Source: Bispira polyomma (taxonomy: Eukaryota). From it: a stretch of 64,000 bases of DNA. Positions 7,233 to 52,244 of this stretch are shown piece after piece. Under the pieces are notes generated by a model that saw only the letters and a program-made list of their open reading frames with translations, was not told where the DNA came from and did not search any database. The position numbers and the translations under genes are program-made. The stretch covers positions 31,496,001-31,560,000 of the forward strand of contig OZ287757.1 of the NCBI GenBank assembly GCA_965649765.1, written 5' to 3'. Each line of letters opens with the position of its first letter. Positions within the stretch are counted from its first letter, which is position 1.

Positions 7233-7244
7233 ATAACAGATACT

Positions 7245-8237: not shown

Positions 8238-8306
8238 ATGTACATACCCCTAAGGTTGGGTTTGAGGCTTTTATTTTATGTACTTCAAAATAAACTCATG
8301 TGCAAG

Positions 8307-15676: not shown

Positions 15677-16115
15677 TTCAAGGTCAAGTACCCCTTAATT
15701 GGTCAAATGTTCAACATATTTTATGGGTTACTGTACAGGGGCAATCAAAAGCAGCTAGGTGGAGGAGGCCGGCCCTGCGGCACCAAATCGCCTAGCGGGG
15801 GGGGGGGGGGGGGGGGGTTCGTGATGTCCAGAGCTCTTATTCTACCCTGGCCTCCTAAACGTGAACTCAGGGAAGGTTTAGAGATCACGACCCCTCACAC
15901 AGACTCGGACTACTCCCCCCAGCGGCAAGTGGATGCGCCTGCCAGGAATTACCCACAAACCTTTAAATAGCAACTCTTAAGCATACTACATCCTGTTGGA
16001 CGTACTCGTATCGGATTTCAAATACATTTCCAGCAAGTTACATGAACGCACTCATGTCTATTTGTGGGTTATAACAATGCACTATTATATTGCTGTGGTA
16101 AGGGGAGGAAGTGGG

Positions 16116-16341
16116 ATAATTTTCCCTGGTGTTGCTTCTTCAGGGCCACGTTTTAAAATGAAGACTAGAAAAAGGTGGGAAAATGTATTGTTCTTCCACA
16201 CAAAGAGAATAGGTGTGTGTATGGCTGGATAGACAGAGTGAATAGTTAGTCGACTCGCCTCCAGGTATTAAGGTAGCTATAAATTTTATTATGTGTGGGG
16301 GTGAATTGAAGTAGCAGACCCCTTTATAGTCGTACTTGCTA
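16116..16341 (-). repeat. E2 repeat A2 (copy of A1 at 21560-21703)
   Basis: Near-identical to 21560-21703, except that A1 lacks about 80 bp lying between two TAGTCG copies. Confidence 0.92.
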
Positions 16342-16505
16342 CAGTTCACCTAAGTGTGGTATTTTAAATGTATATGGTATAAAGATGTAGTAAAACTCTA
16401 GATTTGAGATTTTATTATTTACAAGTTAGGACATAGTATACATGTAAAGAGGGTTAAAATAGTAAATTTAAAATTTTGAAATAATTTTAAAACACCCAAG
16501 CCAAA

Positions 16506-17432
16506 CTAGACAGAAGAAGGAATAGCAAAAGCAAAGGTGAGAGGGACTGTTGAAACTGCCTGTGATGTTTTCTGTAAGTATGTCCATACTGCTGATGATC
16601 TCCAAAGACCATGAGAAATGATGTTCTGCAGGTATACATTATTATTAAATGCAAAAGTTGTACCAGATCTTCTGAATGTATGGAAACTGTGAGATTTTTG
16701 TGGAATCCCAGAGTGTGTGAGTACTGAGGAGAGGGCAGAACGTATGTGTGTATCTATAATTGACCCATGTGGTGGAGAGCAGGCAGCAAACAGGGGAGAT
16801 GTATCTGGTATTGGTCTAGAATGTAATCGCTGTCGCAATGCCTTAACTGGGCATAATTCTTTGTTCTGTAGTTTTGGTATCTGTACAATGTGTACTTCCC
16901 CTCTTGTCTGTAAGTTTTTCACCCATTTTATTATTATGTGGAACCCTGGTGGGCCAAAAATTACATCTTTCCTTAGAGAGTGCTTAGTAGGATCAAACTG
17001 AGCCCTTGAATGTGGTGATATATTAGAAATTCAAAGAAAAGGAAAAAATAATAACAAAAATATAGCTCTGTATAGAATTGGATCAGAGAGGATTACACAT
17101 GATTTGGAAATGAGAAAAAGGTGGTGGTTTTCAAATATACCCCTGGGTTGTGGTCTAAATTGAGAGTTGTGTGTTAGACTTCTCAGAAACATGGCCACTG
17201 TATTGTTCTCGAAAATATTAAAGTCCCAGGAATATTTTTTAGCCATGAATTTTAGAGCCGACAGGTAATTATTGATTGCAGCAGGTGCAGTGCCATTCTG
17301 CACCAAGTATTCCATGAAAGCAATTACTATATGTGTATCTATAACATCCACACCAGCAAAGCAAGTAAATGCCATAAATGTCTTAAATTGACTGTTGTAA
17401 GTAGACAATGTCTTGTGTGGTTTCAGTAGAAC
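16506..17432 (-). pseudogene. E2 tyrosine recombinase (frameshifted)
   Basis: ORFs 17031-17408 and 16506-16922: LCPVKAL, HTFRRSG, HGLWRSSAVWTY. Confidence 0.9.
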
Positions 17433-17438
17433 CTGGAA

Positions 17439-20103
17439 TTATAAATGAATATCGAATTCAAAGAAATTCAGTGGGATTTGGTGCCACACGAAATTCTCTT
17501 GCATTAGTACTGTTTGTTCCTTAGTTGAAAATTGATCTGAATAAACTCTTGAAAGTGCATCTGCTACAGTGTTCTTTTTACCTTTTATGTGCTCTATTTC
17601 TAATCGTATGTCATATGTGGCTGATAACAGCCATATGTTTCTAAGGCATAGTGCCAAAAAATCGTCCCTAGTCTTATTGGAGCCAACCACTAGAACTACT
17701 GCCATGTTGTCACAGAAAAATCTTATTACATTGTCGAACCACTGCTTTCCCCATAACTTAAGTGCTAGTATAATATTTAACATTTCAATGTGTACAATAG
17801 ACACTTGATTATTGTACACATTGTGGAAAGGTGTTGCATAAATTTGATTATTGAAGCACCCTCCAAGACCTGTGAGGCATGCATCAATGTATACTATGTT
17901 ATTGCTGTCAATAATTGGAGAAATAAAGTTGATACCATTATAGTTCTTAAGAAATTTTATAAACCAGCTTATGTCTGCTCTCATTTTGTTTGTAATTTTA
18001 AATCTTTTGGCCTGTGCATTGGCCCGGAATACCATTAGGAGTCTATTAATAAAAGTTCTGGCTGGCTTGACACATTTATGGACATACAGTAATTTTCCTA
18101 AAATAGATTGAAATTTTCCTCTGGAAATCCATTGTTTTTCATAGACCTCCTTACACAATTGAAACATTTTTTCAATTTTTTCTTGGGTAATACTGATGGT
18201 TCCTGCCTGTATGTCTATATCTATCCCTAAACAGGTGACCTTAGTGTCAGTGACAGTTTATCTGGATTGGTGGGGAGGCCTAAAGAATCTACTAACTTCT
18301 GTAACTCATCAAATGCTCTATTTGCTGTGTTTTTGTTCGATATGCAGACGTAGTCATCGATGTAGCAGAACACAGCCGAACGCGACCGCTGGACCGCTGG
18401 ATCCACGTACTTGTCATCTTCAAAGCAGATCCCTAACTTAATTGCATCAACCGGGTCAACTCGTAAATTTCTGAATGCTCTGGCCACGTCCAGTTTCATG
18501 ATTCGTGCTTCCGGTGTAACTTGTATTTCTGCCACAATATCGTCTATCATTGCAAATTTTAAAACAAATTTTGTACCGTTGAATTCTTGCTTATCTACAT
18601 TGTCATTAAATACCCCTTGAGGGTATGATAGATTTAAAATTACGCGGCGTTTGTTTGTGTCCTTTGGGCGTGGGAATAGTGGGGAGCAGTGGGGAGCAGT
18701 GGTATAATTTACTTCCTATAGTCTTTACTGGGCACAACATGGCACCATGGGCACTTTCTTTCTCTAGATATTCCCCAACTGCCGTCATATAACTGGAGGG
18801 CAGAATAGTGGTTGTTTGCTTCTTGTATATTCAATTGATCAGGTTTGGTGAGAGATAAGGGGAAGCCGAATTTTAAATATTGAAATAATAATTTGTCTGT
18901 GTGATCTCTCAGGATTTTCTCCCAGTTGTCTAGATTTAAACCCGAAACCAGTGGTATTCTTGCCCCTCTTGGGAACCCCAGTTGAGTGAATAATATTTGC
19001 AATATCTAATAATTGTGGTATGCTTGATATAAGAATAGGCTCCCTATCTCGGCCTTGAAATGTAAAGCTTGTGTCTGATAATACAATGAAGCCCTTATCC
19101 TTATTAGGCACGTTAATGTCATAAAGCTTTTCCTTATTGGTAAGTTTCTTATCAGTGGAAAAATTTAGAAAATTGTCAAAGAGGTCGGACGACGCCATGA
19201 TTATCTTGTCCTGAACATCCTTGTTCACATTATGTACTTTATTCACATTACATACATTATTAAATGTATTAATACTATTTTTCTGCAAGTCAGCTTCATT
19301 CACTTCTAAAATATCGTCTATAATTCCTGTGATGTGACTAGTATATGTATTATAGTTGTTTTAATACATTCAATATCTTTGTTGTAGTTGTCATATACCT
19401 GTTTGGGTGTTAAGTCACCCATATCTAAATGAGTATCATTCAAACTGTAATTGACATCATCTGTGAATTCAGTTAATGTCACTTCAGTCACTATAGTATA
19501 CAAAATGGCCAGTGGACTAGTTGGTAGCTGTTCACATTTAATGTAGTTGCATAGTTGCTGACTGACATTATATTGCTGGACAAAGAACCCTGCTATGTTT
19601 GGTTTCTGAACCTTAATATGTAAAACTGGTAGTGGGTAATCCCAATAATTGAACTTATGTGACCAATTTGTCACTTGTATGGTGGCATTAGCCATTATTG
19701 TGTTTGCAGGCTTGTTTAACCAGTTATTATCATTAATCTGGTTATCACATTTCCTGTTCTGGGGGAGTACATTATTGCTACCAACTGTTTGCAATGCATT
19801 TGTATACAATAGTATATTATTGCTCTCAAATAGTATTTGTTTTCCTTGCAATACTCTGGCTTTTGTTTTACATGCTTTGGTAACGTCCTGGAAGATTTCA
19901 GCTGTTGTACTACAGCTTGAACTAAGTTGTGACTTCTGTTCATTAACAGTTGCTAAACTGTCTTCTAGATTACATACAGCTTTACTGACCTTTTCAGTTT
20001 CTAATTTTCTCAACTTTACATCACTATCAAGTTTTTTAAAATTATTACTCGACTTAACCTTGGTTACATTTGTTCTATCACATCTGCTAGCTTTTAAATG
20101 CAT
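17439..20103 (-). pseudogene. E2 pol (long linker + RT + RNase H), fragmented
   Basis: LKFGFPL, KLDVARAFR and YIDD; the RNase H ORF 17439-18167 has DAC / IEM / CDN / ADALSR. Several frameshifts and an internal RT deletion. Confidence 0.88.
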
Positions 20104-20226
20104 ATTCTAATGGACACTAATTGAATCACGTCTATTAAAATTTAATATTACAGTACAATAAACCCTATTGTTATTACCCCCAATACACTTTCCAAAAGTT
20201 CGTTTCACTAGTAGTTGGCCAATCTC

Positions 20227-21443
20227 CTAACTGCTGTTATTCGCTTTAACCTCATGTTGTTTAGATGAATTCGACTGGTAGCACTTGAATTCTGGGTGCA
20301 CTACATCCTTATGAAGCAAAGTGGCACAGTGCCAGCAAATGTGCCTGTTTTGCCCGTGATCTGTCTTGTTGTTACATTTGCCTGTGTTGTAGAGCTTACG
20401 AATGGTCCTGGAAGAACTGGACGACTGATTGCTATGTGAGTTGTGCGAGCCGTGAGAGTGAGATGAATGTGCCATGGCCATCTGTGATGCGTTGAGGCAA
20501 TTCAACGCCCACTGGGTGTTGTCACTCCACTGAAGGCGACCCTCTTCTATCTTGTGTATATTATGCAACCACAAAGTACGAACCACTTACCACGGAAGTG
20601 AAGCAGCATCCCGAAGAGATAAAATGACTTGCTGACACATTGCTTTTGAAATGACCGGGTCTGTAACCTGCATGGCATTGGCCAATTGCCCCGCCGCCCA
20701 CTTGGGTAGTGAGAGCTCGTCAAACATGGGCCGTTTCCTGGATGTTCCCCCCACCCAACCTTCATTTGCCCACCTTAGTTTGGGGTCTGCATCAGGGTAC
20801 ATCTGTGCTATTAAAACGCCCAGACCTTTGACATGGGGTCGGCTTACCTTGGGCAAGTGTCTTCTGTGCTTGGATCTCGTACTCTGCCAGCCGTTTATTG
20901 ACTAGTGCTTGAACGTCGGGCAGTGACTTCAATACATCCACTGTAGGCACTCTAGCGTCGGCCGTGTAATTGGTGTGAGCAGGAGGAAGCGTTGGCTGTG
21001 ACGGTGCAGTTACTACAGGTAATGGGTTTGCTACAGGCAGGTTGGTCTGTGTGGTAGCAGCCAGCCAGGTAGTATTCTGGCCTACCCGTGTTTCCATCTG
21101 GTCTAGATGATTCGTGATTCGTTCGTTGGATTTTGCGAGTTTGTCCAGCATCACAAGCATTGAAGCCATAATCTGTCCATCCGAATTCGGCCCTATGGGG
21201 ACGTTATGGTGCTGCTGGAAGCTTTGTAAACGAGGATCTACTGTCATGGCTGTGTAACCATTGTTATTGTCAATGGGAATCTGAGCAGATAATACCTGGT
21301 TCAGAGGGGTCTGTATCTCCGTGGTGCAGTTGTCACTGGCGTCACTGTTCACTAATTTTCGTTGTGAAGTTTTAGCTTTGCTAGTACTTTTACTAGTCTC
21401 TTTTTTTCTTGTTTTCTGATGGTGTCTTTTTTGTTCTACCCAT
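20227..21443 (-). pseudogene. E2 gag-like ORF, fragmented
   Basis: Pieces 20792-21352, 20587-20856 and 20227-20586 with FDELSLPKW, IEEGRLQW and C-terminal HICWHC...HPEFKC. Likely start ATG at 21443. Confidence 0.75.
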
Positions 21444-21559
21444 CCTCAATACACTTATATACCTATCTCAAAATTAATAAACAAACAAAGTAAACTAAAA
21501 GACTAAAGCATAAAACCAATATATAATGTTCATGTAAAAATAAACGTGGATTTTCACAT

Positions 21560-21703
21560 ATAATTTTCCATGGTGTTGCTTCTTCAGGGCCACGTTTTAA
21601 AATGAAGACTAGAAAAAGGTGGGAAAATGTATTGTTCTTCCGCACAAAGAGAATGGGTGTGTATGGCTGGATAGACAGATTGAATAGTTAGTCGTGCTTG
21701 CTA
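21560..21703 (-). repeat. E2 repeat A1 (5' terminus, internally deleted)
   Basis: Matches 16116-16341; terminus TAGCAAGC on the minus strand is shared with E3. Confidence 0.9.
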
Positions 21704-28420: not shown

Positions 28421-30503
28421 ATTCAGAGCTATTTTATATTGATGTATTTTTGACATAACACCCACAGTGGCAACATAATATTAGAATAATCGATTTTAGT
28501 GTTGTGCATTAGTCATGCATAAGTCCTATGATGGCGATATTTGGCACTTTATGTATATTATATCAGAAGTTTTAAAGTTATATTTATAAACATTAATTGC
28601 ATTGCAATAGATCCAACTTAAATAACAGAGGAACATGTTTATTTGTTATACAAAAAAATACAATGAGAGATATAATGAGAGATTTGAGGCCGAGTTTTCA
28701 GAGTCAACTAAGAATCCTGAATGTAACTCGCTTGTGAAAGTGAGAAACCTGCTTTATTGGACTGTATATATTATTAATCAAATTTCAAACCCTAGGTTGT
28801 CCAATTACAGCTGACGGTATTTATTACTTCTGCAACCTATGTCTATTGGCAAGTAGTTGACACTCCTAAAATATTATTTTTCCTTCAGTTCCTCTCAGTA
28901 GGAAATTGTTATTTCAGCAAACTCCTTTGTCTACAAAATTAATATGTAAAGGGATCATTGAATGTTGGAAATAGTCTGTGGTGTGTATTTTCGTTGAATT
29001 CAACTATCTGTAACCTATTCTCTGAAAAATATCCTTCAGTTTGCGGTGATAGTTTTCTCTTGGGGTTAAAAGTGCGTAGAGTAAAAACACAAGGCACATA
29101 ATTTTTAAAAAGTCAATAAAAGATATAATACTGTGTTGTTCTAAAAATGTGTGCCAGTTCAATGTGAACCAGCCATCGTCAACAAAAGAAATTATCCTGT
29201 GCTGTTCCAGAAATGTCAGTTTTGTTAATCGTGAAGCAGTCTTAATATTTTGTATTTGTGTGCACTTATTGCCATAGGATTGCAATAATGATTGACTAAT
29301 TCATATCAAGTTTCTATCACCTCTAATTTGGTAAATGGTATGGCCCATATTTACCAATTTTAAAGATTACAACAATGATTGACCATATATAATAGGTTTC
29401 TATCATCAAAGATGGTAAGCCCAAGTTAGCCCAGTAATAACCACTTTTAAAAGTGAGCACTTTAATTAATTGAAAGAATGGTCTATTAGAACAACACTAG
29501 CTTTCTTAGAACCATATTTCATCTGGAGGGATGCTATGTTTGCAGTGTCTCGAGTACAGGAAATTGTAAGATATGTGTCTTTTTGACTTGTTGGCTCTGT
29601 GGTTTGCAAAATCGATTGTCAAAAATTATCAGTTCCCTATTGGAGGTGAAGTAGGAAATCAGCCTTATTGGAAATGGAGATGGAGAATGTGAAAATAAAA
29701 GATGCTGTTTGCGGTTTTATTTTTCTGTACATGTTAGTGGATATGTACAGATTCACATGAGAATATATTAAAATGTTATGGAATAAAAGTTTTAAAAATA
29801 AGCCCACGCAGGAGCATAACAAGCCCATGAATGCGGACATACAAAATAAAGCATAAGCACTACTATATAGTAAACCAATATATATGTGGGTAATCATGTT
29901 AAAGTAAAATTTTTAAAACAGTTACTAACACGACACCATGGTGGGACAAGCCCAATGCAATAATGACCTTCGAGCCATGCAAAAGAACATGTATAACCTT
30001 AAACCTGAAATTACTGTAGGTCATGTATACTTACTAAAATAGTTACTGATATTACACTGTTATGGGACTAGCCCAACAATTACACCATAATGACCTCGAA
30101 GTCATGAATTAAATTAGATGCAACCTTAGAATATGCCTTTGTGTGGGTATGCAGTTAACTTGCTGAAGTTGTAGCCTTACATTTGAGCAATGATCTGTAA
30201 AATACAAGTTTTATGTTCAATTGTGGGTTGTACCTAGCAGAGATAATTAGGGGCAAGGAGCCTTGGACACCCAGTCATCAAGTTTAGTAAGTATATGTCC
30301 ATGACTGTCCAGTATGGCCAAGTGATATTTGAAGTGATGTTTGTTATGCTGGCACAATGAAAGGAAGTGTGTAACACAGAAATAAAATATAGTAATAATA
30401 CTCGTTTGGTCATTTTTATTCTCATTGAACATATTAGTATGGTTAAAACATGAATATTCTACATTCTAAAACAGAGAAGAAAAAGGGCTAATGCCAAACC
30501 CAA

Positions 30504-31477
30504 TTATGTATTTTGTAGTTGTAGTTTGAAATTCATAGCCACTTTATGGGCGGCATTTGTGGATGTAAGGTATGAATATATGGCATCACTACGCCAATTT
30601 CCATGTATACGTATGTCTTGAAAAGCCACATTTGTGTTAAAAGAATATGTGGCGCCACTACGCCTGAAGCTATGAAATGTAAAGTGTGTGGGATCAAATC
30701 CTAAACTAGTAATAATTGATGCAAGTACTTGTCTAACTTTGGAAGCCAAAAGTGAAGAGTGGAAAGGAAAAGAAGGCAGAAGGAATACAGGGGGAGAAGG
30801 GGGAGCTGGAATAGCTTTAAACATAATTTTCAAGGCCTTAACAGGACACAAAATAGAGTTTTGTAAAGAAAGAATTTGGACTACTTGGAATTGGTCATAA
30901 GCCTGAAGGGTCTTAGACCACTTAATAGTAATAGTAGACCCCACTCGAGACCACTGAATATCCCCACGAGTAAGCCTCCTATCATTACACAACTCCCTGT
31001 GGGTATAAGGGACAAGATTTGAAATACAAAAGAACCCAAAGTAGGCCAACAAAAACAAAGCTTTGTAGACCACACCATTCCTCATAGAATCACATTTACA
31101 CACAATTTGTTTCAACATATCAATACCAATGACACCCTTAAACCTAGGAGCATACGGCAAATTATTTGTAACTGACTTCATGAACATTTTAACCTTGAGG
31201 TGATTCACCCCTGATAATGAAAGTCTATAAAACGTAAAATAATGTCTAATTACTGACAAATAGTTTGCCACAGTAGGTGGCTTCAAGTCATTCTGCACTA
31301 AAAACTCTAGAAAAATCATGACGTAAGCACACAAGGTGTAGTCGTGTATACCTATAAACATAGCCAATGCCAAAAATAACCTAAACTGTGCACTATATGC
31401 AGTCCTAGTTTTCTGTTTATAAGCCAACGGGACCCTCTGCAAAGCAGAGATTGCCAAAGCAGAGCCCAAGGGAGAAT
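30504..31477 (-). pseudogene. E3 tyrosine recombinase, open frame but catalytic Arg appears mutated to Cys
   Basis: 321-aa open frame without an N-terminal ATG. FFCISN where E1/E4 have FLR(I/L)SN; HSFRRSG; HGNWRSDAIYSY. Confidence 0.88.
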
Positions 31478-31483
31478 CTGAAA

Positions 31484-33613
31484 TTATATATCAGTATTTG
31501 GAATAAAAACCCGTGGGCAAATTTCCCACCAATTACAATCATAAAATTTCTCACATAATGTTAATGACACACGACCAGAAAACCAACGTGAAAGGCAATC
31601 AACGTCCTGATTGTTAGCACCATAAATGTGAGCATAATAAACTTGTATATCAAGGCTAGCTGTCAAAAGCCAAATAGAACGAGCATAAGCCATGAGTATA
31701 GAATCCCGTGAACAGCCCGAGTTCAATACAGCCACAACGGCCTCATTGTCACAATGAATTCGTATAAGTTTGCCTGTAAACAGCGAGTGCAACGTGTTAA
31801 GCATGACCCAAATATTTGCCATTTCCAAGTGCACTATAGTATACAATTCAAGGCCATTAGTTGGGTATGTAGCTGCATAAACATTAGTACCACACTTGGC
31901 CCCAACTCCTGACAAGGAGGCGTCAACATATACTTCAAAATCAATATTTTTGTGGTCGTGTATCATGACAGTACCATTAAACAAACACAGGAACTGATTA
32001 AACCATGCTAGATCTTGATGGAAGCCCTCAGAGAGGGGAATTCTATCAGTAGTGGCTGCCCGAAAACACTGCAGCATTCTATTTATAAATAATTGTGCTG
32101 GACGCACACAACGATGAACATACAATAAACGTCCCATAAGTGACTGAAAACCCCTTTTTGATGTAAATCGCCTATTTTTCCACCGACTACAACAGGTTTT
32201 AATTTCAGGTTATTTCTCAAGAGGTATTTGAACAGTACCTTTTTCAGCGTCCACAAGTATGCCCATACAGACTACTTGCCTACTAGCAGGAACTAATTTC
32301 TTGCTATTAATAGGCAAACCTAAATTATGCATTAACTGGTAAAGGGTATGATAAGCAGAGGTTGCTCGCTCAACACTTTGGACACCAATGACGTCATCGA
32401 TGTATCCTAGAATAGTGTAATTTTGAGAATGCATAGCAAAATGTAAAAAGTCCACCAATCGCTGCATTAATCCTGAGCCGTGCTTGTAGCCAAACGCTGC
32501 CGCCACGTCCACATAGAACTTATCATTCCAAGACAATCCCATGACGTCATAGCCACCAGGGTCTATTCGGAGGTTCCTGAACGTGCGACTTACGTCGATT
32601 TTATATAAATAAGCATCTTTGCCTACTCTAGCAATTTCATCAATAATGTGATCAATAGTGGGATATGTCAAACAAAAATCGTAACCGTCGTACACGTTAT
32701 CCTGAACACAACTATTTACAGAGACATTTGCTGGGTAAGAAAGATCAACAATAATACGACGTGAGTCGTTTGATTTGGGCCTAGACAATAAAGGCGAGAA
32801 ATGCATGCATTGGAATGGCTGTTTGTCGTAAGGTCCTGCCATAGCTTTATGACTGGTTTCAGTTGCAAAATAAATGTCAACGTCCCTAGGATATTTGAGA
32901 GCCGAGCTGTGATTATCTACCTGTGTATTAAATTGGAATTTTCCTCTATCCACACAAAGTGGGAAGCCAAATATCAAATACTCATATAAAATGGGGTCAG
33001 TATAATCTTTTAGCAAATCAAGCCATAAGGGCAGATTCAATTCCGAAGGGACTTTAATACGTGCTGATTTATAATTTGAAACCCCTGTTTTAGCTACGAT
33101 GGCATGAGCTTTAGCCACCCAGTCATCAAAAGAAGTGAAGGCCACTTGGGAATATGAACCAGACAAACAGTAATTACTAGGGCATGCTCGAATAAACCCA
33201 AAATGTTGGGTGTAGCGAGATTTAACACCAAGGGTGTATATAGGTAGAGTATCGGCCTGAGAAGAAGCACGTGTTTCAATACTTGTGACACTAAGGTCTA
33301 TATTTGGTAACGTGGAACTTACATCTACAGGGACACTTGATATATCGGAACTGATATTATTATCATTCACTATGAAACCATCAGCAACCTTTTGCATAGG
33401 TACACGAATTTGCTCAGTAATTTTATCCACATTACTATTACCATTAAAACTACTTGTACAAAATTTTGAATTAACAAAAACCCGAGAATGAACATATTTT
33501 GGCTGTTTATGTCCATGATTTTTAGTTTCTTGGAATTTTCCAATAAAAACAGAACCCTTTTTAGCAGTAAATATTTGTGTACGCCTATGCAAGTTTACTG
33601 TTTGGTAACCTCA
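31484..33613 (-). pseudogene. E3 pol (RT + RNase H), interrupted near 32210
   Basis: ORF 32210-33592 has KIDVSRTFR and YIDD; ORF 31484-32137 has DAS / LEM / CDN. Confidence 0.92.
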
Positions 33614-34799
33614 TTTTTTGGAGGTCTAACTTCTTTAATTTTTCTCAAGCAAGTACTCTCACTATGACCAAAAAATTTCTTGGTTATACCATGACAATAT
33701 GCACACCCATGCTTATGGAGTTCATTTCTTTCCACATGATCTGATTTCTGATGGCATTGACCCTTATTGTAGTTACGACAAGGTACAGCTGTAAGAGACT
33801 GAGCGGCTTTCAATTTTGAAGCAGTGTTTGAAGGGTAAACTACTCTTTGAGTATACCTATCTTTGAAATATCTTGAAATATCCTTCTCCATTTCTTGAAG
33901 TAAAATTTTGTGGGCTGTTTTAGCAGTAAACCAGCTCGTATCTTGACCATCCTGAAGTAACTAATGGCCATACCTTAACATATTCTGCTGAACTACAGCA
34001 TTTTGCTCTTGCAGAACACAACCCATAAAACCCTGACAAAATTGTACTGAGGTAAGCTCATCATATACAGGAGATTCCCTATCAGGTCCTAAACCAAACT
34101 CGTGAGGCCAATTTATACTAACTTTAGCAAAAGTGTCTCCTACTCTATACAACCCAGATTTAATCTTTTTACCTTGCACCCCATCGAAGTGGTCATGTCT
34201 GTCTGCTAAATCTAGTTGTGTCAAATGTCTATTAACTTCTGTCTGGATGGGCTGGTTTTCCCTCTGGAAGCTCATGGTAGGGATGATCCCGCGCTCCAGT
34301 TTGTCGAGTTCTGCATGGTAGTCTCTGGCAGGAGTAGGACGAACAGCTCTGGCTTCGGTAGTTGCAGTGGACGGCACATACCCAGTCCTCTGGGTAGTGA
34401 CAGGAACAGCCGTGGCAGCTCGGGTGGTAGTTGCAGACCCAGGTACAGCAGAAGTTCTAGCAGATAGGAAAAGATCCATATCTTTCTCTCTATCTTGTTT
34501 CAGTTGTTGGACCTGACCCTCGAGCTTCTGTAAATGAGCCATTATCTGATCCAACTTGTCTACCTGAGCCCTATTATCTGACCCTTGGTCCAACGCCACG
34601 GTACTAGCTTCACCAGAGCTCTCCTCTCGCTGTGGCTGGCCTGGAGGTATCTGTGTATCAGTGAACATTTCAGCCTCAGCCATATTGCCTAAGTTTGTCC
34701 TGACAGCAAACCGACAACCGTCACCAACTGGCTTGTCGTGTTTGACTAAACAGTGGTTACAAAAAGCAGATTTTTCCTTACCTTACCAGGTGGAATCAT
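33595..34799 (-). pseudogene. E3 gag-like ORF (in-frame stop at 33961; frameshift near the start)
   Basis: The frame upstream of ATG 34683 encodes CNHCLVKHDKPVGDGC, the same knuckle as E1/E4. A 5-bp duplication (GTAAG x2, ~34777-34786) disconnects it from ATG 34799. C-terminal CRNYNKGQC..H..HGCAYC..H....C. Confidence 0.85.
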
Positions 34800-34972
34800 G
34801 ACCTAACTCGTTCCACCACTCTACTGGTCACAATTCTACCTGTACACCACAAGGCTTTACTGGAATGTCACACACACCACCCTGTACCAGATCACAACGT
34901 ATTCAATAGGTAACAACAAATTGCCACAACATACACTATCTCAGCGTTGGTCACACACGTTCACTATAGCCA

Positions 34973-35087
34973 ACACATGAAACTGCTTCCAGTTTCTATA
35001 CAAATGTTTGTCCCAGCTAATAACACATGAAACTGCTTCCAGTTTCTAAAACCAATGGTACACCCACACGAAACTGCTTCCAGTTTC
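34973..35087. repeat. Three copies of the hairpin GAAACTG-CTTC-CAGTTTC in the E3 5' leader
   Basis: Exact 18-mers at 34979, 35029 and 35070. Confidence 0.9.
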
Positions 35088-38000
35088 TTACTACTATGGT
35101 TGTCCGTTCATTTGGCCACCCTCAGTAACTAAGAGGGACTAAAAGACTAAAACCCACTGCAGCGTAACCCAGGATTGCAGTGTTTTTGTCCACTTAACAC
35201 AAGTTTGTCCATCACCAGTTTATCCGTACCGTGTTAAGTCTGACACAGCACTTCTACCTTGTCCGCCCAGTGCTATGAATGGCAAAGTGATTAAGTTGTG
35301 ATGCCCCAAACCAACGAAACTACTGGCAGCACAACATTAATCAAATGCAAAGAGTGCATACAGTGTAGGGGTTTATATAGACACCATGAGGAGTGAGGGG
35401 AGTGGAAAAGTTTGGGGAAAAGTGAAGAGTCACAAGATACATTAATTGAACAGTCTAGAGCTAAATTTCCTCCCAGAGCAAAGAAAAGAGGTTGAACTGT
35501 CTGGGAGTGTGGACTTTGGGCCCCCAAAGTGAGGCGACCAGCAGAGAACCCAGCATGTTGAACTGTCTGAAATGTGTGAACTTTTTACCCCCAAACTTGA
35601 GGTGCCTATATGGAAACCCAGAAGGGACCTAAGTGTGAACAGAGTGAACATGATTGAACATAAGTGAACAACTTGCATTAGGTTATAACTTGCACAGCTG
35701 ACTGAACCTGCACGCACAGCACCCATACCATATTCGCCTAGCAGTGGGGAGTCCAACCTCTTAGAGCCCTTATTCCACCCTGGCTCCCTAAACGTGATAC
35801 TCAGGGGAGAGATAAGAAGGAAGGACCCCACCACCACACGGCACCAAACCCGAATTTCCCTACAAACAACAGTGTTAAGCAACTGAGTTTCCCTAATGAA
35901 TTTTATGAAGTTTATGTGCCTTACACAAGGTGGAAGGGGAGGGTGGATGGATTTGCTTATTCACGTGTTTACCCTTGTCTTGCTGGGTTTAAAATGGAAG
36001 AATATATGTGCGGGGACCACACAAGCTAATTCAGCAAGGTGTGTTATATGGTGATTGGTCAGTATTGGCTTCCTGATGGACAGAGTGTGGAACAAGAATA
36101 GTTTTTTTTAAATGTGTTTTTGGAACTGACACAGCAGCCTCCTAAAGTAGGCTTGCTAGTCACAGTACAGGAAATTGCCTTTTCTTCAGCTTCACTTCAA
36201 CAGTAAGATATGTGTCTTTTTGACTTGTTGGCTCTGTGATTTGCAAAATCGATTGTCAAAAATGATTACTGTTTTCTCCAGATTCAGCAATATTTCAAAA
36301 ATTTTATTGGGTAAAAAACTTATTATTGTTGATATATTGATTAACTAGCAAAGATTGGTTTCAAAATTGTTATCTCTTTCGGGTCATAGTTTTACACATT
36401 TATACTTTATCTGTAAATTAAAATGAATATTCAAGTATGTTTAGGACTTCATGTGTGTCCTAGACCTTTTCAGCGTCACCACAGTCATGATCCCTGTATA
36501 TAAAATGACTATATGAAAATTATGTTCCTGTCTTGTGCGTCTTATAATCCACTATTATGGAGATTAAGCGTCACAAAAGTTTACGCAAATTGCCATCTTT
36601 GGCTTCTTTTGTAAAGTAATGTCTGTGGTGTTCAATTTCTAATCACTGGCTTCTCATCAACATCCTATTTGTTCCTTCATCTAGGAAAAATTGTCAGACA
36701 CTTGCCGGACATTGTTGGTTTACAATGCTTCAGCGAGATATATGATCTAATCTGTTAAAAGTGACACAAAACAAAATTACATTTGTTACAATCTTTAGAG
36801 CAAAAATTATTTAATTACACAGTGTTACTGAAAAGTTTACAAAAAGAATTACAATTCCCTAGAAACAAATGACTGAGGGCAGAATGAAAAAGTAAATCTA
36901 CGTATAAAGTGAGGTCAGACTGATTGACGAGCTGGTATTGAGTCCAATGTAATTATTAACTTAGTAAAGAGTAACTTAGTAGAGAATATATTATGTAAAA
37001 GAAGTAATATATGTTTTCTATTTTAGAAAACTACCCAATCAGTCTCACTGTTTTTTGTCATTTATGGAAAATGGGTCCTGTTTACGAGATGCTTCTGAGA
37101 ATAACCAATATATTCTAAAATATTTATTGATACCTTTATTTAAAGCAATGCAATACCTTTGCAAATATAGTTCTTCCTTTTCATATTCTAACAATATACA
37201 ACGCAATATTATACAACTACAAACAATGGAAATCATACAATAGAATATTAGAATTAAAACTCGTAACTTTACCAAAAAAAATAAATTAAAAAGGTACATT
37301 ACTATTACATAATTAAACAGTTCTCTAAATATTCATGTGTACTTAAACGGGATACAAGTGCAGCTAACATGGTGCACAAAAAAACTAATTTTCATGTTTT
37401 TCGGTGCTAGATTCTGGGCTGCCATGATTTTTATTCTAAACTGCTAAAAGTGACATAAAACCTAACTAAATTCCAAATAATTTTCGTGGTACTCATTATG
37501 GCCAAAATAATTTGATGAATATCACCAAACCTACTGCAAAACGTATGTAATTTACTGCTAGTGTTGCTTCATGTTACCTAAATACTTCGGAAAAGATTCT
37601 TTTTGAGACCCAAAACACTAAATATGAACAAAAAATTACCACTGTCTACTGACATTTTCAAATGGATTTGTCAGCTTGACACATAACACACAGGGACCGT
37701 CGAGCTAAACATAGTATGACGTGGGAGACTGGATACTGTACTCCTTCTATTTTTGCCATCTTTTCTAAAGAAGCTCAAGCATAAACTCAGCTTATACTTA
37801 TGTAAAGGCTACGTCAAAACTTATTAACATCACAATAACTCATGCTTGTGACTACTCATGTAAATAGACCTGTCAGCACTGAATGCTAATGTGTGGTCAG
37901 CTTATACTTATCTTCTTCTAATCTTATCTTAACATTTGAGCTCGGATATGAGGGGTTTTTGGTTAAGATTATGGCTGCCGGTTATGATCTCACACTAAAA

Positions 38001-45592: not shown

Positions 45593-46681
45593 ACAAAAGG
45601 TATAATACAATGCACATGAAATATTGTTGTAATTTACAGTTGGAAGCCAAGAACACTACTGGAGGCTATTTATAAAATTGCATTAGTGTTAGCGAAAAGT
45701 TAAAACCATATAATTTTGAAAATAATGCCTATAAATAAATTACTGAGGGCAGAATCAAAATGTAAATGCACTTGTATAAGGTGGTGTCAGCCTGAGTGAC
45801 TGGCAGGTCTTGTGACTGATGAACGGAATCAACTTAGTATAAGAACAGGATAATTGTAAATGTATATGTAAAAGATGTACATATTTTAGAAAACCACCCA
45901 GGCAGTTTTTTGTCATTTATGCAAAGAGGGGTTATGTTCCCAAGACGATTCTGAGAATAACTAATATATATTTTTAAATATTTGCTTATATCTATATAAC
46001 ACAATGCAATAAGATTGCAAATAGACTAAAACGTGAAACTCAATATTATACAACTGTTTCACTCGTGGTGTCTAGGCTTCACGGGAGTCAGTCCTGCCCC
46101 CCTCTTAAAATTCTTAAGTTACCAGCCTGGTTTTGACAGGTAAAAAGTAAATGACATCATAAGGAATTCCACTTGTTACTAGGGGTTCAAATGTTTATTC
46201 TGAATTCTCATTGGCTCCCAACTTGGGGTATGCTTAAGAAATCCATTTTACCTTCAGTTTAAAATTTTCTAGTCAACAGCACAGACGTGCTGAGAGTTTT
46301 TTACAAGAATTTGTTTTTAAAAGTTAGATTTACAAATGTTTGGGATGAAACTGAACTGTCTTAGTGATTTTAGTCGTCAGTTATACACATGTGCATGGAA
46401 TTAATTACAAATTGAATATGTACATAACACTGGAAGTCGTGTATTGATGATTGGAAGTTCAAAGCAATTGTCAGTGTTGAAGCCCAGCTGATCTGTCAAC
46501 CTCATGCTTGGTTCGCCCGAAAGGGCAGCAAAAAGGGACGGTCTAACCTATTTCTGTTACTCACCACTAAATTGGGTTCTGAAACTTGAATTGGTTGGCC
46601 AAGCGTGAATTTGTCAAATCAGCACTGAGGGATTTGTTTTTCATCTTGTTTCAGAAAGGAACATTGACTTAAAAAGTAAAA

Positions 46682-47797
46682 ATGCCACAAAGCAAATCAC
46701 TATGTAAAAAGTGCATGAACAGACATTTACCCCCAACCGGGAAAAAGTGTAAACAAATGGAAGTGCTTGAACAGGTCACCCGCCAGTCTGACATGTCAGA
46801 CGCCACAGACACCCCAGTTCGTGGAAGACGGGAGGCAGCAGCGTCGGCGCCAGGAGGGATAGACAGCGTGCAGATGCAAATACTCAGTGAACTGAAGAAG
46901 GTCAACTCACGGCTGGATGCAGTTGAGGAGCAAGTTGCAGATGTGAGAGCAAAGGAGACAGACTCTGAACGGGACTTGCAAAAGTTAAGTACTGGTTTTC
47001 ACAAACATTCTCGTAAAGCTAAAAGAGGTACAAAAAGTAAAAAGGTGTGTGATAGTGACAGTTCCTCTGATGAGTCAATAGTACCCACTATGTCCGTGTT
47101 AAGGTCCTCCCAAGAGATACAAAGAGAAGTAGACAACAGATTGAGGGAATTAGAGCACGAAGGGGTCTGTCATGCAGGTAATTATTTTGTTTCAAAAATC
47201 AAATCCAAAAGGGGGGGAAATGTTGACGTGATTGTAAAAAATAAGGTGGCCTGGCCACATGAGTGCATACTAGGGGGAAATAGTAGGCAGAGGCTTGCAT
47301 ATGACCAGTTGTCACTCACACAGTGGGTACAGGGATTCTGTAAAAATATTTTAGATGAAAATGATAACTCACTCAAAGAAAAGATGATACAATACATGTC
47401 TGAGCTGATGGAAGACGCCACAGATTTTTCGTGGCAGGGGGCAAAAGCGGCCCATGCGGTCCTCTTATGCGAAATGGAGAGGGGAACTGTCTCATGGCAG
47501 AACACTTCTCGCATTGAAAGGATACGCAGGGCCCATGCACAAAAACATTTACTGGGGCAGGGCAAATCTACTTGGGTCAAAAGCAATGAAACGGGCAAGA
47601 AACCTTGGTTTTGTAAAAATTTCCAGAACGGGAGCTGCACTCATAGTAAGGATCATGAGTTTGGGGGGAAAACTTACAGGCACATCTGTTCTCATTGTCT
47701 GGAAAAGGGCAAAGAACTAAATCATGCAGAAAAAGATTGTCATTTTGCAAAAAAGAAAGTATTTTCAAAAAACGAGCATGTGGCTGCTCAACTTTAA
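46682..47797 (+). CDS. gag: Gag-like protein (N-terminal CxxCxxxH knuckle, coiled coil, C-terminal Cys/His fingers)
   Basis: 371-aa ORF; CKKCMNRHLPPTGKKC; CKNFQNGSCTHSKDH...HICSHC...HAEKDC; conserved with E1 and E3. Confidence 0.88.
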   Translation: MPQSKSLCKKCMNRHLPPTGKKCKQMEVLEQVTRQSDMSDATDTPVRGRREAAASAPGGIDSVQMQILSELKKVNSRLDAVEEQVADVRAKETDSERDLQKLSTGFHKHSRKAKRGTKSKKVCDSDSSSDESIVPTMSVLRSSQEIQREVDNRLRELEHEGVCHAGNYFVSKIKSKRGGNVDVIVKNKVAWPHECILGGNSRQRLAYDQLSLTQWVQGFCKNILDENDNSLKEKMIQYMSELMEDATDFSWQGAKAAHAVLLCEMERGTVSWQNTSRIERIRRAHAQKHLLGQGKSTWVKSNETGKKPWFCKNFQNGSCTHSKDHEFGGKTYRHICSHCLEKGKELNHAEKDCHFAKKKVFSKNEHVAAQL

Positions 47798-50265
47798 ATC
47801 CGAGTGAGGGCAGCTACGAAATGAAACTCAGACATGAAGGTTGTAAAAATGTAAGTGGTGAACAAAAAGCTTCTAGAAATGTAGTGAAACCAGTCGTTGT
47901 GTGTAAAGAAACCAGTAGATATACACCTCCAGTGCAGGGTGATCATTTTAGAACCAGAGTGTTTTATAATAGTCAGATTAATGTGAAAGAAACACAGTCT
48001 TTGATGGCTCGTACAACGCTCCAAAGTTTTAAGTTTAGGAACACACATGTTGTCTGGCCCTGTCAGAATACGGCTAGTAAAAGCATGACCAGAACCTTCT
48101 ACTCTCGAAAACAAAAACAGGCCGACATTAAAAAACAAGATCAGGACATTGGGGGCTTTTGTCAAAAGCAATATGGTAATACCACAGAATCCAAGATCGA
48201 TTGTGCAGACAAAAGGGTCGCAAAAACATTAGAATTGGACTCGGCAGACAAATTCAGGGGGCATAGTGACACGTCAGGTCACAACAAGGCATCAAGGGGG
48301 GACACGGGTAGCGACATGTGTGTTTCTAATCTTAATGGTGACAATGCACAAGGAAATGCCCACGCAAGTAATGTAGAGAAACCCATAATAGGTGGGTCAA
48401 AGGGTGTCACAAAGTTATTATATGATGTGAACAAATATTCCATTGATGACAAATTTATAAACTCGGTACTTGGTAGAAAGAAAGTATGTGAAATGGACAG
48501 TGTAGCACTAAATAGTGTTTTTAGTTTCACAAAGTGGAGAAAACAGTCTCAATTCGAGTTTGGATTTATTCCATTATCCGATGCTGTGACCGATGACAAC
48601 GGCGTATTACCTCACCACAGTACTGTGGTAGATCCGATTATGCAACACTTTGTTATCCAAAAAACTGGTGTTCATAATTTCAAAGGTGCGCGTATTCCGT
48701 TAAACTCCCAGTTAAAAGTCAAAAACTGGAAAAAGCATTTAGTACATTATTGGGATCAGCAATTGCTTCAGCTTATTGAGTTCGGCTTCCCACTAGATTT
48801 CAATAGACAGTGTCCTTTAAGATGGGAAGGGGGAAATCATAAGTCGGCCACAGAATGTCCCAAAGATATAGAAGTGTATTTGGAAGAGGAAACCAAACAT
48901 GGCGCCATAATCGGCCCTTTTAGTGAGAATCCAATCAAAACGGGTCACTGCTCCCCTTTCATGAGCAGAGAAAAACCCAATTCGGATAACAGAAGGGTGA
49001 TAGTAGACCTTAGCTGGCCTCCAGAGGCTTCCGTTAACGCAGGGGTGGACAAAAACCAATATCTAGGTCGTGAGTTTAACCTGACCTTTCCCACGGTTGA
49101 TCATATAACGGCTGAACTCAACAAGTTGGGTAGAGGAGCGTTCTTGTACAAAATTGACGTCAGTCGTGCGTTCAGGCATGTGAAAATCGATCCTCACGAC
49201 TATGACCTGCTAGGTCTTTCTTGGAAAGGGGCATATATTGACACCTGCTTGCCATTTGGTAGTAGACATGGCAGTCAGATCTTTCAAAGATTGAGTGACG
49301 CAGTGCGTTACGTAATGCGTTGTCATGGTCACAGCGTCGTCAACTACATAGATGATTTTATAGGCTACGGCACGCCGTCGGTGGTGCACCACTCATACAA
49401 TAAACTATTGCAAACGTTGCAAGACTTAGGTCTAACCATTAGCCAAAAGAAACTGATACCTCCTGCAACTGAGGCAGTATGTCTGGGCGTATTGATAAAC
49501 ACGGTAGAGGGTACAATATCAATACCCAAAGAAAAACTCGAACTTATACAAAAAACGGTCGAACAGTGGCATCATAAAAGTACTTGCACAAAACGTCAAC
49601 TGCAGTCATTGCTCGGGTTGTTGTTATATGTTCACAAATGCGTTAAGCCTGCCAGAACCTTTCTGAATAGAATGCTTGGATTGTTGAGATGTTCATATAA
49701 TCAAAGTAGTATTAAACTCACAAGTGATTTCCATAGGGATCTCAGGTGGTTCAGTAGGTTTCTGCCATTGTACAATGGGGTTTCCATGTATGACCATAGG
49801 TGTGTGGATCACGTACTGGAATTGGATGCCTGCCTCAGTGGCCTGGGGGGAGTTTGGAAAAATTGGGTGTATCATTTCCCCATAACCAAAGGTTACATGA
49901 GCTTAGGAATAGTACATCTGGAGATGGTCAATATTTTGCTGGCCTGCAGGCTTTTTCAAAGGGAATGGACCAAAAAGAAAGTACTGATAAAGTGTGACAA
50001 TCAAGCAGTAGTGTGGGCCTTACAAATGGGCAGAGCTAAGGATCCTTTTTTGGCTGCCTGTGCAAGGAACATCTGGTATGTCGCGGCATTGGCTGATATC
50101 GAATTCCAGTACGTCCATATTCTGGGTAAGCAAAATAGAACAGCTGACCTCCTGTCAAGGTGGCAAAACACTACCGAAAATTACAATGAATTGCATAAAT
50201 ATGTTACTAAACCTGTATGGCTAGCACCTGTGATACAAATGATCAATGTAGATAACGAGTTGTAG
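47695..50265 (+). CDS. pol: Reverse transcriptase / RNase H (probably entered by -1 frameshift at 47767-47773)
   Basis: 856-aa ORF with KIDVSRAF, LPFGSRHG and YIDD; RNase H DAC / LEM / CDN / ADLLSR. No protease, DDE integrase or methyltransferase motifs seen. Confidence 0.95.
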   Translation: MSGKGQRTKSCRKRLSFCKKESIFKKRACGCSTLNPSEGSYEMKLRHEGCKNVSGEQKASRNVVKPVVVCKETSRYTPPVQGDHFRTRVFYNSQINVKETQSLMARTTLQSFKFRNTHVVWPCQNTASKSMTRTFYSRKQKQADIKKQDQDIGGFCQKQYGNTTESKIDCADKRVAKTLELDSADKFRGHSDTSGHNKASRGDTGSDMCVSNLNGDNAQGNAHASNVEKPIIGGSKGVTKLLYDVNKYSIDDKFINSVLGRKKVCEMDSVALNSVFSFTKWRKQSQFEFGFIPLSDAVTDDNGVLPHHSTVVDPIMQHFVIQKTGVHNFKGARIPLNSQLKVKNWKKHLVHYWDQQLLQLIEFGFPLDFNRQCPLRWEGGNHKSATECPKDIEVYLEEETKHGAIIGPFSENPIKTGHCSPFMSREKPNSDNRRVIVDLSWPPEASVNAGVDKNQYLGREFNLTFPTVDHITAELNKLGRGAFLYKIDVSRAFRHVKIDPHDYDLLGLSWKGAYIDTCLPFGSRHGSQIFQRLSDAVRYVMRCHGHSVVNYIDDFIGYGTPSVVHHSYNKLLQTLQDLGLTISQKKLIPPATEAVCLGVLINTVEGTISIPKEKLELIQKTVEQWHHKSTCTKRQLQSLLGLLLYVHKCVKPARTFLNRMLGLLRCSYNQSSIKLTSDFHRDLRWFSRFLPLYNGVSMYDHRCVDHVLELDACLSGLGGVWKNWVYHFPITKGYMSLGIVHLEMVNILLACRLFQREWTKKKVLIKCDNQAVVWALQMGRAKDPFLAACARNIWYVAALADIEFQYVHILGKQNRTADLLSRWQNTTENYNELHKYVTKPVWLAPVIQMINVDNEL

Positions 50266-50267
50266 AT

Positions 50268-51281
50268 ATGGAATTAATGATGCTATGCTTTGTTTCAGGG
50301 CACAGGCTCCTTGAGAAGCTGGGTGCACAGGCTAATACAAGGTTGAAATCTGCCTTCAGACCAAAGACACAGAGCTCCTACACACAGCAATTTAGAACTT
50401 TTGTGGCTTTTTGCGTGCATGTGAACGTGCATTTGCAGGCAATGTCTGTACAATGCATAATGTCTTTTCTGGAGTTTCTGATGTTTAATAACATATCAAG
50501 CCAAATGATGGCGAATTATCTCTCAGCTATAAAGGCTAATTTCACAATGCTGGGCCTTTCTGTGGTCCCCTTTCAGCATAACAAAATAAAGTATTACTTA
50601 AAAGCTGTAAAAAGGAATAGACCATTGTCGGTCACAAGACATAATATATTAGATATAGAGATGCTAACAAACATCATATCCCTTTGTGATAGCTTCAAAC
50701 TGGGCGTGGTCTTTAAGGCGGTTTTTCTGACTGCCTTTTTTGGCTTTCTGCGCATTTCGAATCTAGCACCACATTCTGTGGCTGCCTTTGACAGAACTAG
50801 GCACTTAACCCCAGCTGATCTATTCTTTACAGGCGACTCTGTCAAACTACTTATAAAATGGACCAAAACTCTGCAAAATAGGGATAAAGTGCACATCCTT
50901 ACTCTCCCAAAGCTTTCTAATCATAAACTTTGCCCATACAAGGCCTTAAAACACTTGCTGAAACTATGCAAACCACTCAGATCAGAACCCTTATTCCAGT
51001 TTGAATCCTGTCATCAGTGGCAGGTGCTTACTGATACACGTATACGTAAAGTTCTAGCAGCAATAAATGTAAAAATGGGTTTGGCACCAAACCACTTTAC
51101 TTTTCACACATTCCGGCGTTCGGGTGCCTCGTTTGCTTATAATTCAGATATATCGATACAACAAATCCAGCAGCATGGCACTTGGACGTCGGACTGTGTC
51201 TGGACATACATCCATGGGGATGCCACCATGAGTGAGAATGTTGCTAAATCCCTGCAGACTACACTAAATGCGATGATGTGA
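50268..51281 (+). CDS. Tyrosine recombinase (phage-integrase family)
   Basis: 337-aa ORF with the full catalytic set: FLRISN (R), HTFRR (HxxR), HGTW, VWTYI (Y). Confidence 0.95.
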   Translation: MELMMLCFVSGHRLLEKLGAQANTRLKSAFRPKTQSSYTQQFRTFVAFCVHVNVHLQAMSVQCIMSFLEFLMFNNISSQMMANYLSAIKANFTMLGLSVVPFQHNKIKYYLKAVKRNRPLSVTRHNILDIEMLTNIISLCDSFKLGVVFKAVFLTAFFGFLRISNLAPHSVAAFDRTRHLTPADLFFTGDSVKLLIKWTKTLQNRDKVHILTLPKLSNHKLCPYKALKHLLKLCKPLRSEPLFQFESCHQWQVLTDTRIRKVLAAINVKMGLAPNHFTFHTFRRSGASFAYNSDISIQQIQQHGTWTSDCVWTYIHGDATMSENVAKSLQTTLNAMM

Positions 51282-51405
51282 TTACCCTACGTTTCATTGG
51301 GCTTTGAGGGTTCTTCTAATGTTAATTGGTATGGTCTTATACGTATACATGTCATTTAAGTACTTATGTAATATAACTATGGTGAAGGTGACAGTAACAT
51401 GGCTC

Positions 51406-51618
51406 TAAGGTCGCCTAAACAGGTTAAGATAACCTTAAACTAATTAAGGTCACCGCTCGATGGTGAACCAATTTTTGAACATAAGTTAAGGTAACCTTAA
51501 TGTGGTGTAAAGTGTAATTTAAGGTCACCTGACGTTGGTGACCTAGTTTGAAGTGACAATAGTCAAGTTAAGTTCACCTCAAACTGGTTGTGTAAAATTA
51601 AGGTCATCTTAGATGGTG
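51406..51618. repeat. Array of TTAAGGTNACCTTAA palindromes in the E4 3' region
   Basis: Copies at 51406, 51424, 51444, 51486 (perfect), 51519, 51568 and 51598. Confidence 0.8.
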
Positions 51619-52244
51619 ATTGTATGGTATAATGTAAGCTTGTATAATCTTGTATAACCTGGTGTGATATGTAAATAAATAGTAGTCATAACGTTTGTAT
51701 ATAATAAAAGAGTACCCGCAATCATGCGCTTGTTTATGACTTCGGCTTGGGGAGGTGGGGACTGAACAGTATGACAGCATACAATACTCTAATACAATTG
51801 CAACTTGTAACATTTTTACCACCAAAACATATAGAAAAACTACATGACTTGGAGAAAATGAACAGTTTTCAAAGTCCTATTCCTGTGTACTAGAGGGGGT
51901 TGGCTACAAGTGCAGTTACCAGGGTGCAAGATGAAAAAAAAATATTTTCATCTTTCTCTGTGCTAAAGCTAATATCGATAAATATGTAGCAGAGAGGCTA
52001 CTGTTGGACCATTTTTGTCATTTATTTGTGCTTGAAAATTAGTCAGGAACAAGACCAGAATATATATAAAACTACACAAGTTTGCAAACAAAGGGGGTAA
52101 GGCTTTAGTGTTGCATTTTTGTATAACAAATATATTTAAAAAGACTACAGGTACAGTTAGAGCAGTGCAATAAGAATTCTACCTCTGTCAGCACAAGAAC
52201 TAATACTAAATAAAGCTTCTTATTGCTTTCATTAGGGCTTAGAA

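What the first reader, a model, noticed from the sequence alone, without database searches (positions are those of the whole stretch)
46497..46549. Structured non-coding motif shared by four divergent elements, 360-480 nt from the 5' end
Seen: E1 (3441-3495) and E4 share CAACCTCATGCTTGGTT (AACC/GGTT stem). A second hairpin follows that is replaced but still paired (GACCT-TTTT-AGGTC versus GCCC-GAAA-GGGC), then AAGGGAYGGTCTAACCT, within otherwise unalignable leader DNA. E2 (15872-15830) and E3 (35807-35762) share CCCTGAGT(A)TCACGTTTAGG..CCAGGGTRGAATAAGRGCTCT. Common core: stem-loop with TCAYGYTT, a short segment, then AAGRG..TCT. Inference: an RNA packaging or RT-priming signal analogous to retroviral psi or hepadnaviral epsilon. 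The priming mechanism of these elements is not well established.
Basis: partly seen in the sequence, partly recalled or inferred. Interest (0 to 1): 0.78.

Follow-up and report, generated by a model that had tools for sequence, protein, structure and literature searches.

The report
Conserved RNA folds in Ngaro retrotransposons
A group of little-studied animal jumping genes keeps a sequence in front of its first gene that is predicted to fold into a conserved RNA stem, and this stem likely marks the element's full-length RNA for packaging and copying; a sister group keeps a different predicted fold near the other end.

Summary
E1-E4 are Ngaro-type tyrosine-recombinase retrotransposons (A1-gag-RT/RNaseH-YR-B1-A2-C-B2).

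The E1/E4 motif (motif I) is the top of a roughly 140-nt structure. TCAYGCTTG pairs with a CAAG arm 90-100 nt downstream, with compensatory changes across 24 families. Inside the stem sit a covarying hairpin and an invariant AAGGGAYG with no conserved partner. The motif lies on the sense strand about 180-200 nt before gag in 30 of 30 gag-selected copies, usually just ahead of a splice-acceptor-like YAG.

The E2/E3 motif (motif II) is not near the 5' end. It lies in spacer C between A2 and B2 of a separate clade. 'E3' is a third-clade element nested inside a solo copy that carries motif II. Homology of the two motifs is suggestive but unproven.

There is no Rfam match and no fit to known ribozymes. 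The most likely role is a psi-like signal on the genomic RNA that is spliced out of the gag mRNA. This is inferred: no RNA data and no second species were available.

The parts
46059..51764 (+). E4, clade I Ngaro-type element, A1-leader-gag-RT/RNaseH-YR-B1; this copy lacks A2-C-B2
   Evidence: ends from copies; domains
46059..46304 (+). Repeat A1; holds donor-like ACAG|GTAAA (46136), ATTGG (46210) and TCAGTT (46254)
46487..46512 (+). Motif I 5' arm with invariant TCAYGCTTG (46502)
46515..46526 (+). Motif I inner hairpin, GNRA loop in 8 of 24 families
46533..46540 (+). Invariant purine-rich AAGGGAYG with no conserved pairing partner
46599..46624 (+).
46649..46654 (+). TTTCAG, predicted splice acceptor; pyrimidine tract plus YAG in 22 of 24 families
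46682..47797 (+). ORF1 (gag-like, Cys/His-rich ends), with a conserved donor-like CAG|GT at 47177/47178
47659..50265 (+). RT/RNase H ORF, no methyltransferase match
50256..51281 (+). Tyrosine recombinase ORF with acceptor-like TTTCAG (exon would start at 50299), in phase with the gag donor
51307..51764 (+). Repeat B1
3047..8700 (+). E1, clade I element (3' end approximate)
3430..3594 (+). E1 motif I: TCATGCTTGG 3446, AAGGGATG 3479, CCAAGC 3538, TTTCAG 3589; gag ATG at 3629
14913..21694 (-). E2, clade II element: A1 remnant 21694-21560, B1 16498-16356, A2 16341-16116, C, B2 15098-14913
15752..15956 (-). Motif II of E2, in spacer C; core 15872-15830
35731..36166 (-). 5' part of a clade II solo A-C-B carrying motif II (core 35807-35762); it continues at 30271-29630
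30272..35730 (-). Nested third-clade element X (the gene-bearing 'E3'); neither motif found in it

Best explanation
Motif I is a sense-strand sequence kept about 180-200 nt before gag in clade I Ngaro-type retrotransposons, predicted to fold into a long stem with a branched head, and it likely acts as the signal by which the element's Gag/RT proteins pick out the unspliced genomic RNA for packaging and copying. SHOWN: the conservation, fixed orientation and position, and the compensatory changes. PREDICTED: the fold. INFERRED: (1) proteins bind the invariant top of the stem and the AAGGGAYG tract; (2) the acceptor just downstream removes the structure from the gag mRNA, so only unspliced RNA carries it; (3) clade II, whose leader is short, does the same job with motif II in the 3' spacer C, where it would not hinder translation. 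Motif II also has a self-complementary tract that could pair two RNAs.
For: Present in 30 of 30 gag-selected loci, always sense, E<1e-21 (these are the top 30 of 111 matches and 14 are E4-family). RNAalifold, given no structure, finds the long-range helix, with AU 10 / GC 9 / UA 1 at one pair. The named structure has 83% of cells paired and 22 double changes against 7.2+-2.6 shuffled (0/500), with 23-47% paired when slid. G-U cells outnumber A-C 35 to 15, and 8 of 24 hairpin loops are GNRA, which favours sense-strand RNA. The core is more conserved than pairing needs. A YAG with pyrimidine tract follows in 22 of 24 families. The elements appear to use splicing: a donor-like AG|GT in gag in 38 of 40 copies across three clades, and an in-phase acceptor before YR. 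None of the 30 gag-selected genomic copies lacks the motif. Analogues: purine-rich packaging signal on top of the pararetrovirus leader stem (PMC5902531, passages) and the MMTV purine loop bound only in unspliced RNA (PMC8096270, abstract).
Against: No binding, probing or RNA data. All DNA comes from one genome, so families are related and the shuffle test is not a probability; the structure was also drawn from these sequences. Folding z-scores are lower on the minus strand in 17 of 24 families, and E4 alone scores only z -1.5. The only conserved donor upstream (16 of 24 families) lies in repeat A, 5' of CCAAT- and initiator-like words that may mark the transcription start, so the leader intron is uncertain. 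Clade X lacks both motifs by pattern and by model. Absence of intron-less copies is equally expected if the leader is never spliced.
Confidence: 0.45

Rival explanations
1. Splicing regulator: the stem controls use of the adjacent acceptor, by masking or presenting the branch-point-like YTGAC in its 5' arm, and so sets the ratio of genomic to spliced RNA. This may coexist with the best explanation.
For: Fixed distance to the YAG. GAC is conserved even where its partner mismatches (pairs 23-27 only 67% paired). The elements carry other conserved splice-like signals.
Against: It does not explain the invariant AAGGGAYG, or a comparable fold in clade II, where no acceptor before gag was seen in the leaders printed. 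The donor is uncertain.
Confidence: 0.22
2. Translation element (internal ribosome entry or ribosome shunt) that lets ribosomes reach gag past a long leader full of ATGs.
For: The stem ends about 55-60 nt before the gag ATG in E4 and is followed by A/U-rich sequence. There are 4-10 upstream ATGs per family. The layout recalls the pararetroviral shunt (PMC5902531, passages).
Against: A short upstream ORF ends at the stem base in 11 of 24 families, against 14, 7 and 7 in control windows. Shunt stems are reported as not conserved in sequence (PMC5902531), whereas this core is invariant. Motif II lies downstream of all genes.
Confidence: 0.13
3. New self-cleaving ribozyme or RT-priming structure that creates or templates the primer.
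For: Invariant core at a junction. Motif II's loop (UUCACG/UCCACG) recalls the loop of HDV-like ribozymes (recalled, not from a call). The DIRS primer is unknown (PMC7192593, sections 3 and 26).
Against: No Rfam match at either motif. My descriptors for HDV-like, hammerhead, twister and pistol gave no hit conserved across 24+15 rows. Cleavage at either site would cut A1 or B2 off the genomic RNA (inference). No shared transfer site was found.
Confidence: 0.1
4. DNA-level element: a promoter or enhancer, or a fold of the single-stranded cDNA.
For: Short invariant words could be factor sites. DIRS cDNA is single-stranded (PMC7192593, abstract). Minus-strand z-scores are as low or lower.
Against: Compensatory pairing over 90-100 nt, G-U excess and GNRA loops on the sense strand. 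No antisense placement among the 30 gag-selected copies. Promoter-like words lie in repeat A instead.
Confidence: 0.1

Closest known systems
Ngaro superfamily of tyrosine-recombinase retrotransposons (order DIRS): the host elements
   Same: gag, RT/RNase H, YR, no methyltransferase match, A1...B1-A2-B2 repeats, solo A-B copies (bioRxiv 2021.08.05.455354, PMC8547959, PMC4157794; passages)
   Different: Unique spacer C of 170-760 nt between A2 and B2. Most E4-family copies stop at B1. I found no paper describing cis-acting RNA folds or splicing in Ngaro (searches; open-licence library only).
Retroviral psi (e.g. the MMTV purine loop)
   Same: Structured leader before gag with a conserved purine tract; possible link to unspliced RNA
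   Different: No tRNA primer site noticed. The acceptor lies between the motif and gag. No binding shown. The sister clade's fold is at the 3' end.
Pararetrovirus leader stem-loop (CaMV, RTBV)
   Same: Long basal stem, purine-rich sequence near the top, A/U-rich stretch before the first ORF
   Different: No conserved short upstream ORF at the stem base; much smaller; acceptor-like site downstream
Hepadnaviral epsilon (recalled)
   Same: Irregular stem with bulges near the 5' end of an RNA that is reverse transcribed
   Different: Branched head; no matching transfer site found; no terminal-protein domain seen
HDV-like ribozymes (recalled)
   Same: Motif II loop letters resemble their L3 loop
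   Different: Double pseudoknot not found

Membership tests
Ngaro retrotransposon (host element) | RT/RNase H plus tyrosine recombinase, no integrase | tested here: met
Ngaro retrotransposon (host element) | Split direct repeats A1...B1 A2 B2 downstream of YR | tested here: met
   full layout in 5 of 19 gene-bearing E4-family copies
Ngaro retrotransposon (host element) | No methyltransferase domain | tested here: met
   no Pfam match in 24 window ORFs; RNase H runs straight into YR
Ngaro retrotransposon (host element) | RT groups with named Ngaro references | not tested
   no reference sequences on hand; trees hold only this genome's copies
psi-like packaging signal | Conserved RNA structure in the untranslated genomic RNA | tested here: met
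   (predicted structure)
psi-like packaging signal | Specific Gag binding and requirement for packaging | not testable with these tools
   needs experiments
psi-like packaging signal | Present or folded only in unspliced RNA | tested here: inconclusive
   acceptor-like site in 22 of 24, donor uncertain, no RNA runs
epsilon-like priming signal | Bulge sequence repeated at the 3' transfer site; protein priming domain | tested here: inconclusive
   no conserved partner for AAGGGAYG in 25 elements; bulge repeats not tested directly
Known self-cleaving ribozymes | Match to family model or catalytic-core topology | tested here: not met
Pararetroviral ribosome shunt | Short ORF ending just before the basal stem | tested here: not met
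   11 of 24, against 14, 7 and 7 in control windows
One family joining motifs I and II | Mutual detection by profile and shared fold | tested here: inconclusive
   models do not cross-detect; core matrices rank the other motif 1-103 of 14,000-18,000 positions, chosen post hoc; five candidate intermediates lay in no element

The most novel reading that the evidence does not exclude
Motifs I and II descend from one position-independent RNA signal that recruits Gag/RT and starts Ngaro replication. It moved between the two segments that follow repeat A: the 5' leader, where it is spliced out, and the 3' spacer, where it has a dimer palindrome. It would be the first defined packaging or priming signal in DIRS-order elements and a direct handle on their unknown priming step.
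Probability: 0.2. Interest if true: 0.85.

Novelty: new variant of a known kind. Interest (0 to 1): 0.6.

Why it matters
How tyrosine-recombinase retrotransposons choose their RNA and start reverse transcription is open; PMC7192593 states that no primer is known for DIRS-1. These are two well-bounded, clade-wide RNA folds that are absent from Rfam. They give concrete nucleotides to mutate in a retrotransposition assay, and the E4 family is young and has open reading frames. The conserved splice-like signals also suggest how such elements express their recombinase.

Tried and rejected
Motif inside repeat A: rejected for all four elements. Known ribozymes and Rfam families: no match. Shunt layout: no enrichment. 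Long-range partner for AAGGGAYG: none conserved. Intermediates between I and II: five candidates lay in no element.

Scans of metagenomes, viral contigs and prokaryote genomes gave nothing. The one pattern hit, L281, has no gag and is a chance match.

Expression: no RNA holder listed. The three runs laid look like DNA and show no splice-type joints, which is no evidence either way. The Gag fold prediction had not finished, and Pfam names no Gag domain. The genome cannot be searched with an RNA model, so patterns and fetched loci were used. Several stretches were fetched on the wrong side of minus-strand hits and held no RT; they say nothing about motif absence. No supplements were read.

Full report
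Setting. The window lies in a 1.04-Gb genome (G000:C10). E1-E4 encode a gag-like ORF, RT/RNase H and a tyrosine recombinase, with no methyltransferase match. The E4 family begins at 46059. Of 19 gene-bearing copies followed at the 3' end, 5 read A1-leader-ORFs-B1-A2-C-B2 and 14, including the window copy, stop at the end of B1; two further loci are solo A-C-B. This is the Ngaro layout described in bioRxiv 2021.08.05.455354, PMC8547959 and PMC4157794 (passages), with an added unique spacer C. An RT tree of this genome's copies gives three clades: I (E1, E4), II (E2) and X (the genes of 'E3').

Motif I is real. The two-word pattern matches twice in the window against 0.06 expected, and 184 times in the genome against 4 for the control. 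Of the 30 matches given as loci, 23 lie in element leaders (22 with a gag hit) and 7 do not. Ninety instances fell into 28 clusters. I dropped four (L024 deleted, L201 broken 5', L209 interrupted, L210 not an element) and aligned 24. TCAYGCTTG, AAGGGAYG and an AAG about 90-100 nt further on are invariant. To avoid selecting on the motif, I searched with a Gag from another assembly. All 30 loci returned (the top 30 of 111 matches; 14 are E4-family) carry the motif on the sense strand just before gag.

RNAalifold finds GCTTGR paired with YCAAGY, with AU 10, GC 9 and UA 1 at one pair. In single-sequence folds this helix has probability above 0.5 in 22 of 24 families. The AACC/GGTT stem exceeds 0.5 in 0 of 24, and only 9 of 24 keep its four pairs. 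These counts ignore relatedness, and the structure was drawn from the same rows. G-U outnumbers A-C 35 to 15 and 8 of 24 inner loops are GNRA, pointing to sense-strand RNA. Against this, z-scores from my own 25-shuffle routine are lower on the minus strand in 17 of 24. E1 scores z -3.7 and E4 only -1.5. AAGGGAYG pairs locally in different ways in different families and has no shared distant partner in 25 elements, so its conservation needs another cause, most simply a protein or a tertiary contact.

Neighbourhood. A pyrimidine tract and YAG follow the stem in 22 of 24 rows (one has TTTCTG, one is cut off), then the gag ATG. A donor-like ACAG|GTAA sits at a matching place in repeat A in 16 of 24 (my note said 17). 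It lies upstream of ATTGG and TCAGTT words that may mark the start of transcription, so the intron is not established. Prompted partly by earlier AI notes, I checked other splice-like signals. AG|GT lies at one place in gag in 38 of 40 copies from all three clades. An acceptor-like site precedes YR in 35 of 38 by a loose pattern, and it is in phase with the donor in E4. A shunt-type short ORF is not enriched.

Motif II is elsewhere. In E2 it lies between A2 and B2. All 20 E2-family 5' ends go from A1 straight into a short leader, and 0 of 5 checked held the motif. In 12 elements picked by the motif it lies downstream of YR: between A2 and B2 in the 11 that show both repeats, and between the B copies in the twelfth. 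A deeper lineage and further families repeat this. In the window, 36166-35731 and 30271-29630 are contiguous in other copies, while 35730 is the 5' end of a separate family. 'E3' is therefore a nested insertion just after motif II. Motif II has its own fold: a hairpin with CATCACG/TTCACG in the loop inside covarying outer stems, with 95% of cells paired over 14 pairs in 14 rows. A tract just downstream is in the top tenth for self-pairing in 13 of 21 related instances, using different letters.

One family or two? The motifs share TGAS-N-TCAYGYTT and a later AGGG or AAGRG. Neither covariance model finds the other. Core weight matrices rank the other motif between 1 and 103 of 14,000-18,000 positions, but I chose the blocks after seeing them. 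Five candidate intermediates lay in no element. In I the TCAYG is in a stem and in II it is in a loop. I put homology near even odds. Both follow a copy of repeat A, which would make a move between leader and spacer easy (inference).

Mechanism. Best reading (0.45): a psi-like mark on the genomic RNA that Gag/RT binds, likely removed from the gag mRNA by the adjacent acceptor. Clade II would use motif II at the 3' end. The analogues are the purine-rich signal on the pararetrovirus leader stem (PMC5902531, passages) and the MMTV purine loop (PMC8096270, abstract). Rivals are splicing control (0.22), a translation element (0.13), a ribozyme or priming structure (0.10) and a DNA-level element (0.10). 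That motif I is a selected RNA structure I put at about 0.85-0.9. Clade X lacks both motifs, which any model must explain.

Known versus new. There is no Rfam match at the motifs in the window or in 16 loci, and no conserved fit to recalled ribozyme descriptors. Searches returned no paper holding all their terms; the listings of 24, 41, 71, 88 and 100 showed none on RNA structures in Ngaro elements. Subscription literature and Repbase were not searched. PMC7192593 (abstract, sections 3 and 26) says the DIRS-1 primer is unknown; PMC6681497 (passages) notes A2-B2 solo forms in VIPER. Limits: one genome, no RNA data, no experiment.

Noticed in passing
window 47175-47179 and 50293-50299 (+); matching sites in E1, E2 and X: A conserved splice-donor-like site inside gag and an in-phase acceptor-like site before the recombinase suggest that YR is made as a spliced Gag-N/YR fusion in all three clades.
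   Followed up: partly
E4 family, L031-L055: 14 of 19 gene-bearing copies end at B1, and solo A-C-B copies exist. This may reflect recombinase action at the internal B|A junction.
   Followed up: partly
window 35086, 35045, 34995 (-): The clade X leader holds three copies of a small perfect hairpin (AAACTG-GAAG-CAGTTT), a possible stand-in for motifs I and II.
   Followed up: no
window 35730/30272; L208:227-570: Two cases of a Ngaro element starting in or just after the spacer C of a clade II copy, close to motif II.
   Followed up: partly
window 46059-46304 and 51740-51764: The end of B is complementary to part of the start of A, so the B|A junction could form a hairpin. A also ends in a conserved hairpin, preceded by ATTGG and TCAGTT words.
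   Followed up: no
window 12488-12744, 15424-15675, 26673-26948, 43876-44159, 45317-45600, 52221-52504: A roughly 270-nt SINE-like repeat in six places, one inside E2's spacer C.
   Followed up: no
window about 52500-64000 and 36000-40500: A degenerate segment of about 7 kb is repeated in tandem, with a third copy about 17 kb upstream.
   Followed up: no
L261-L272 versus clade I: Clade II gag starts lack the N-terminal Cys/His motif seen in clade I.
   Followed up: no
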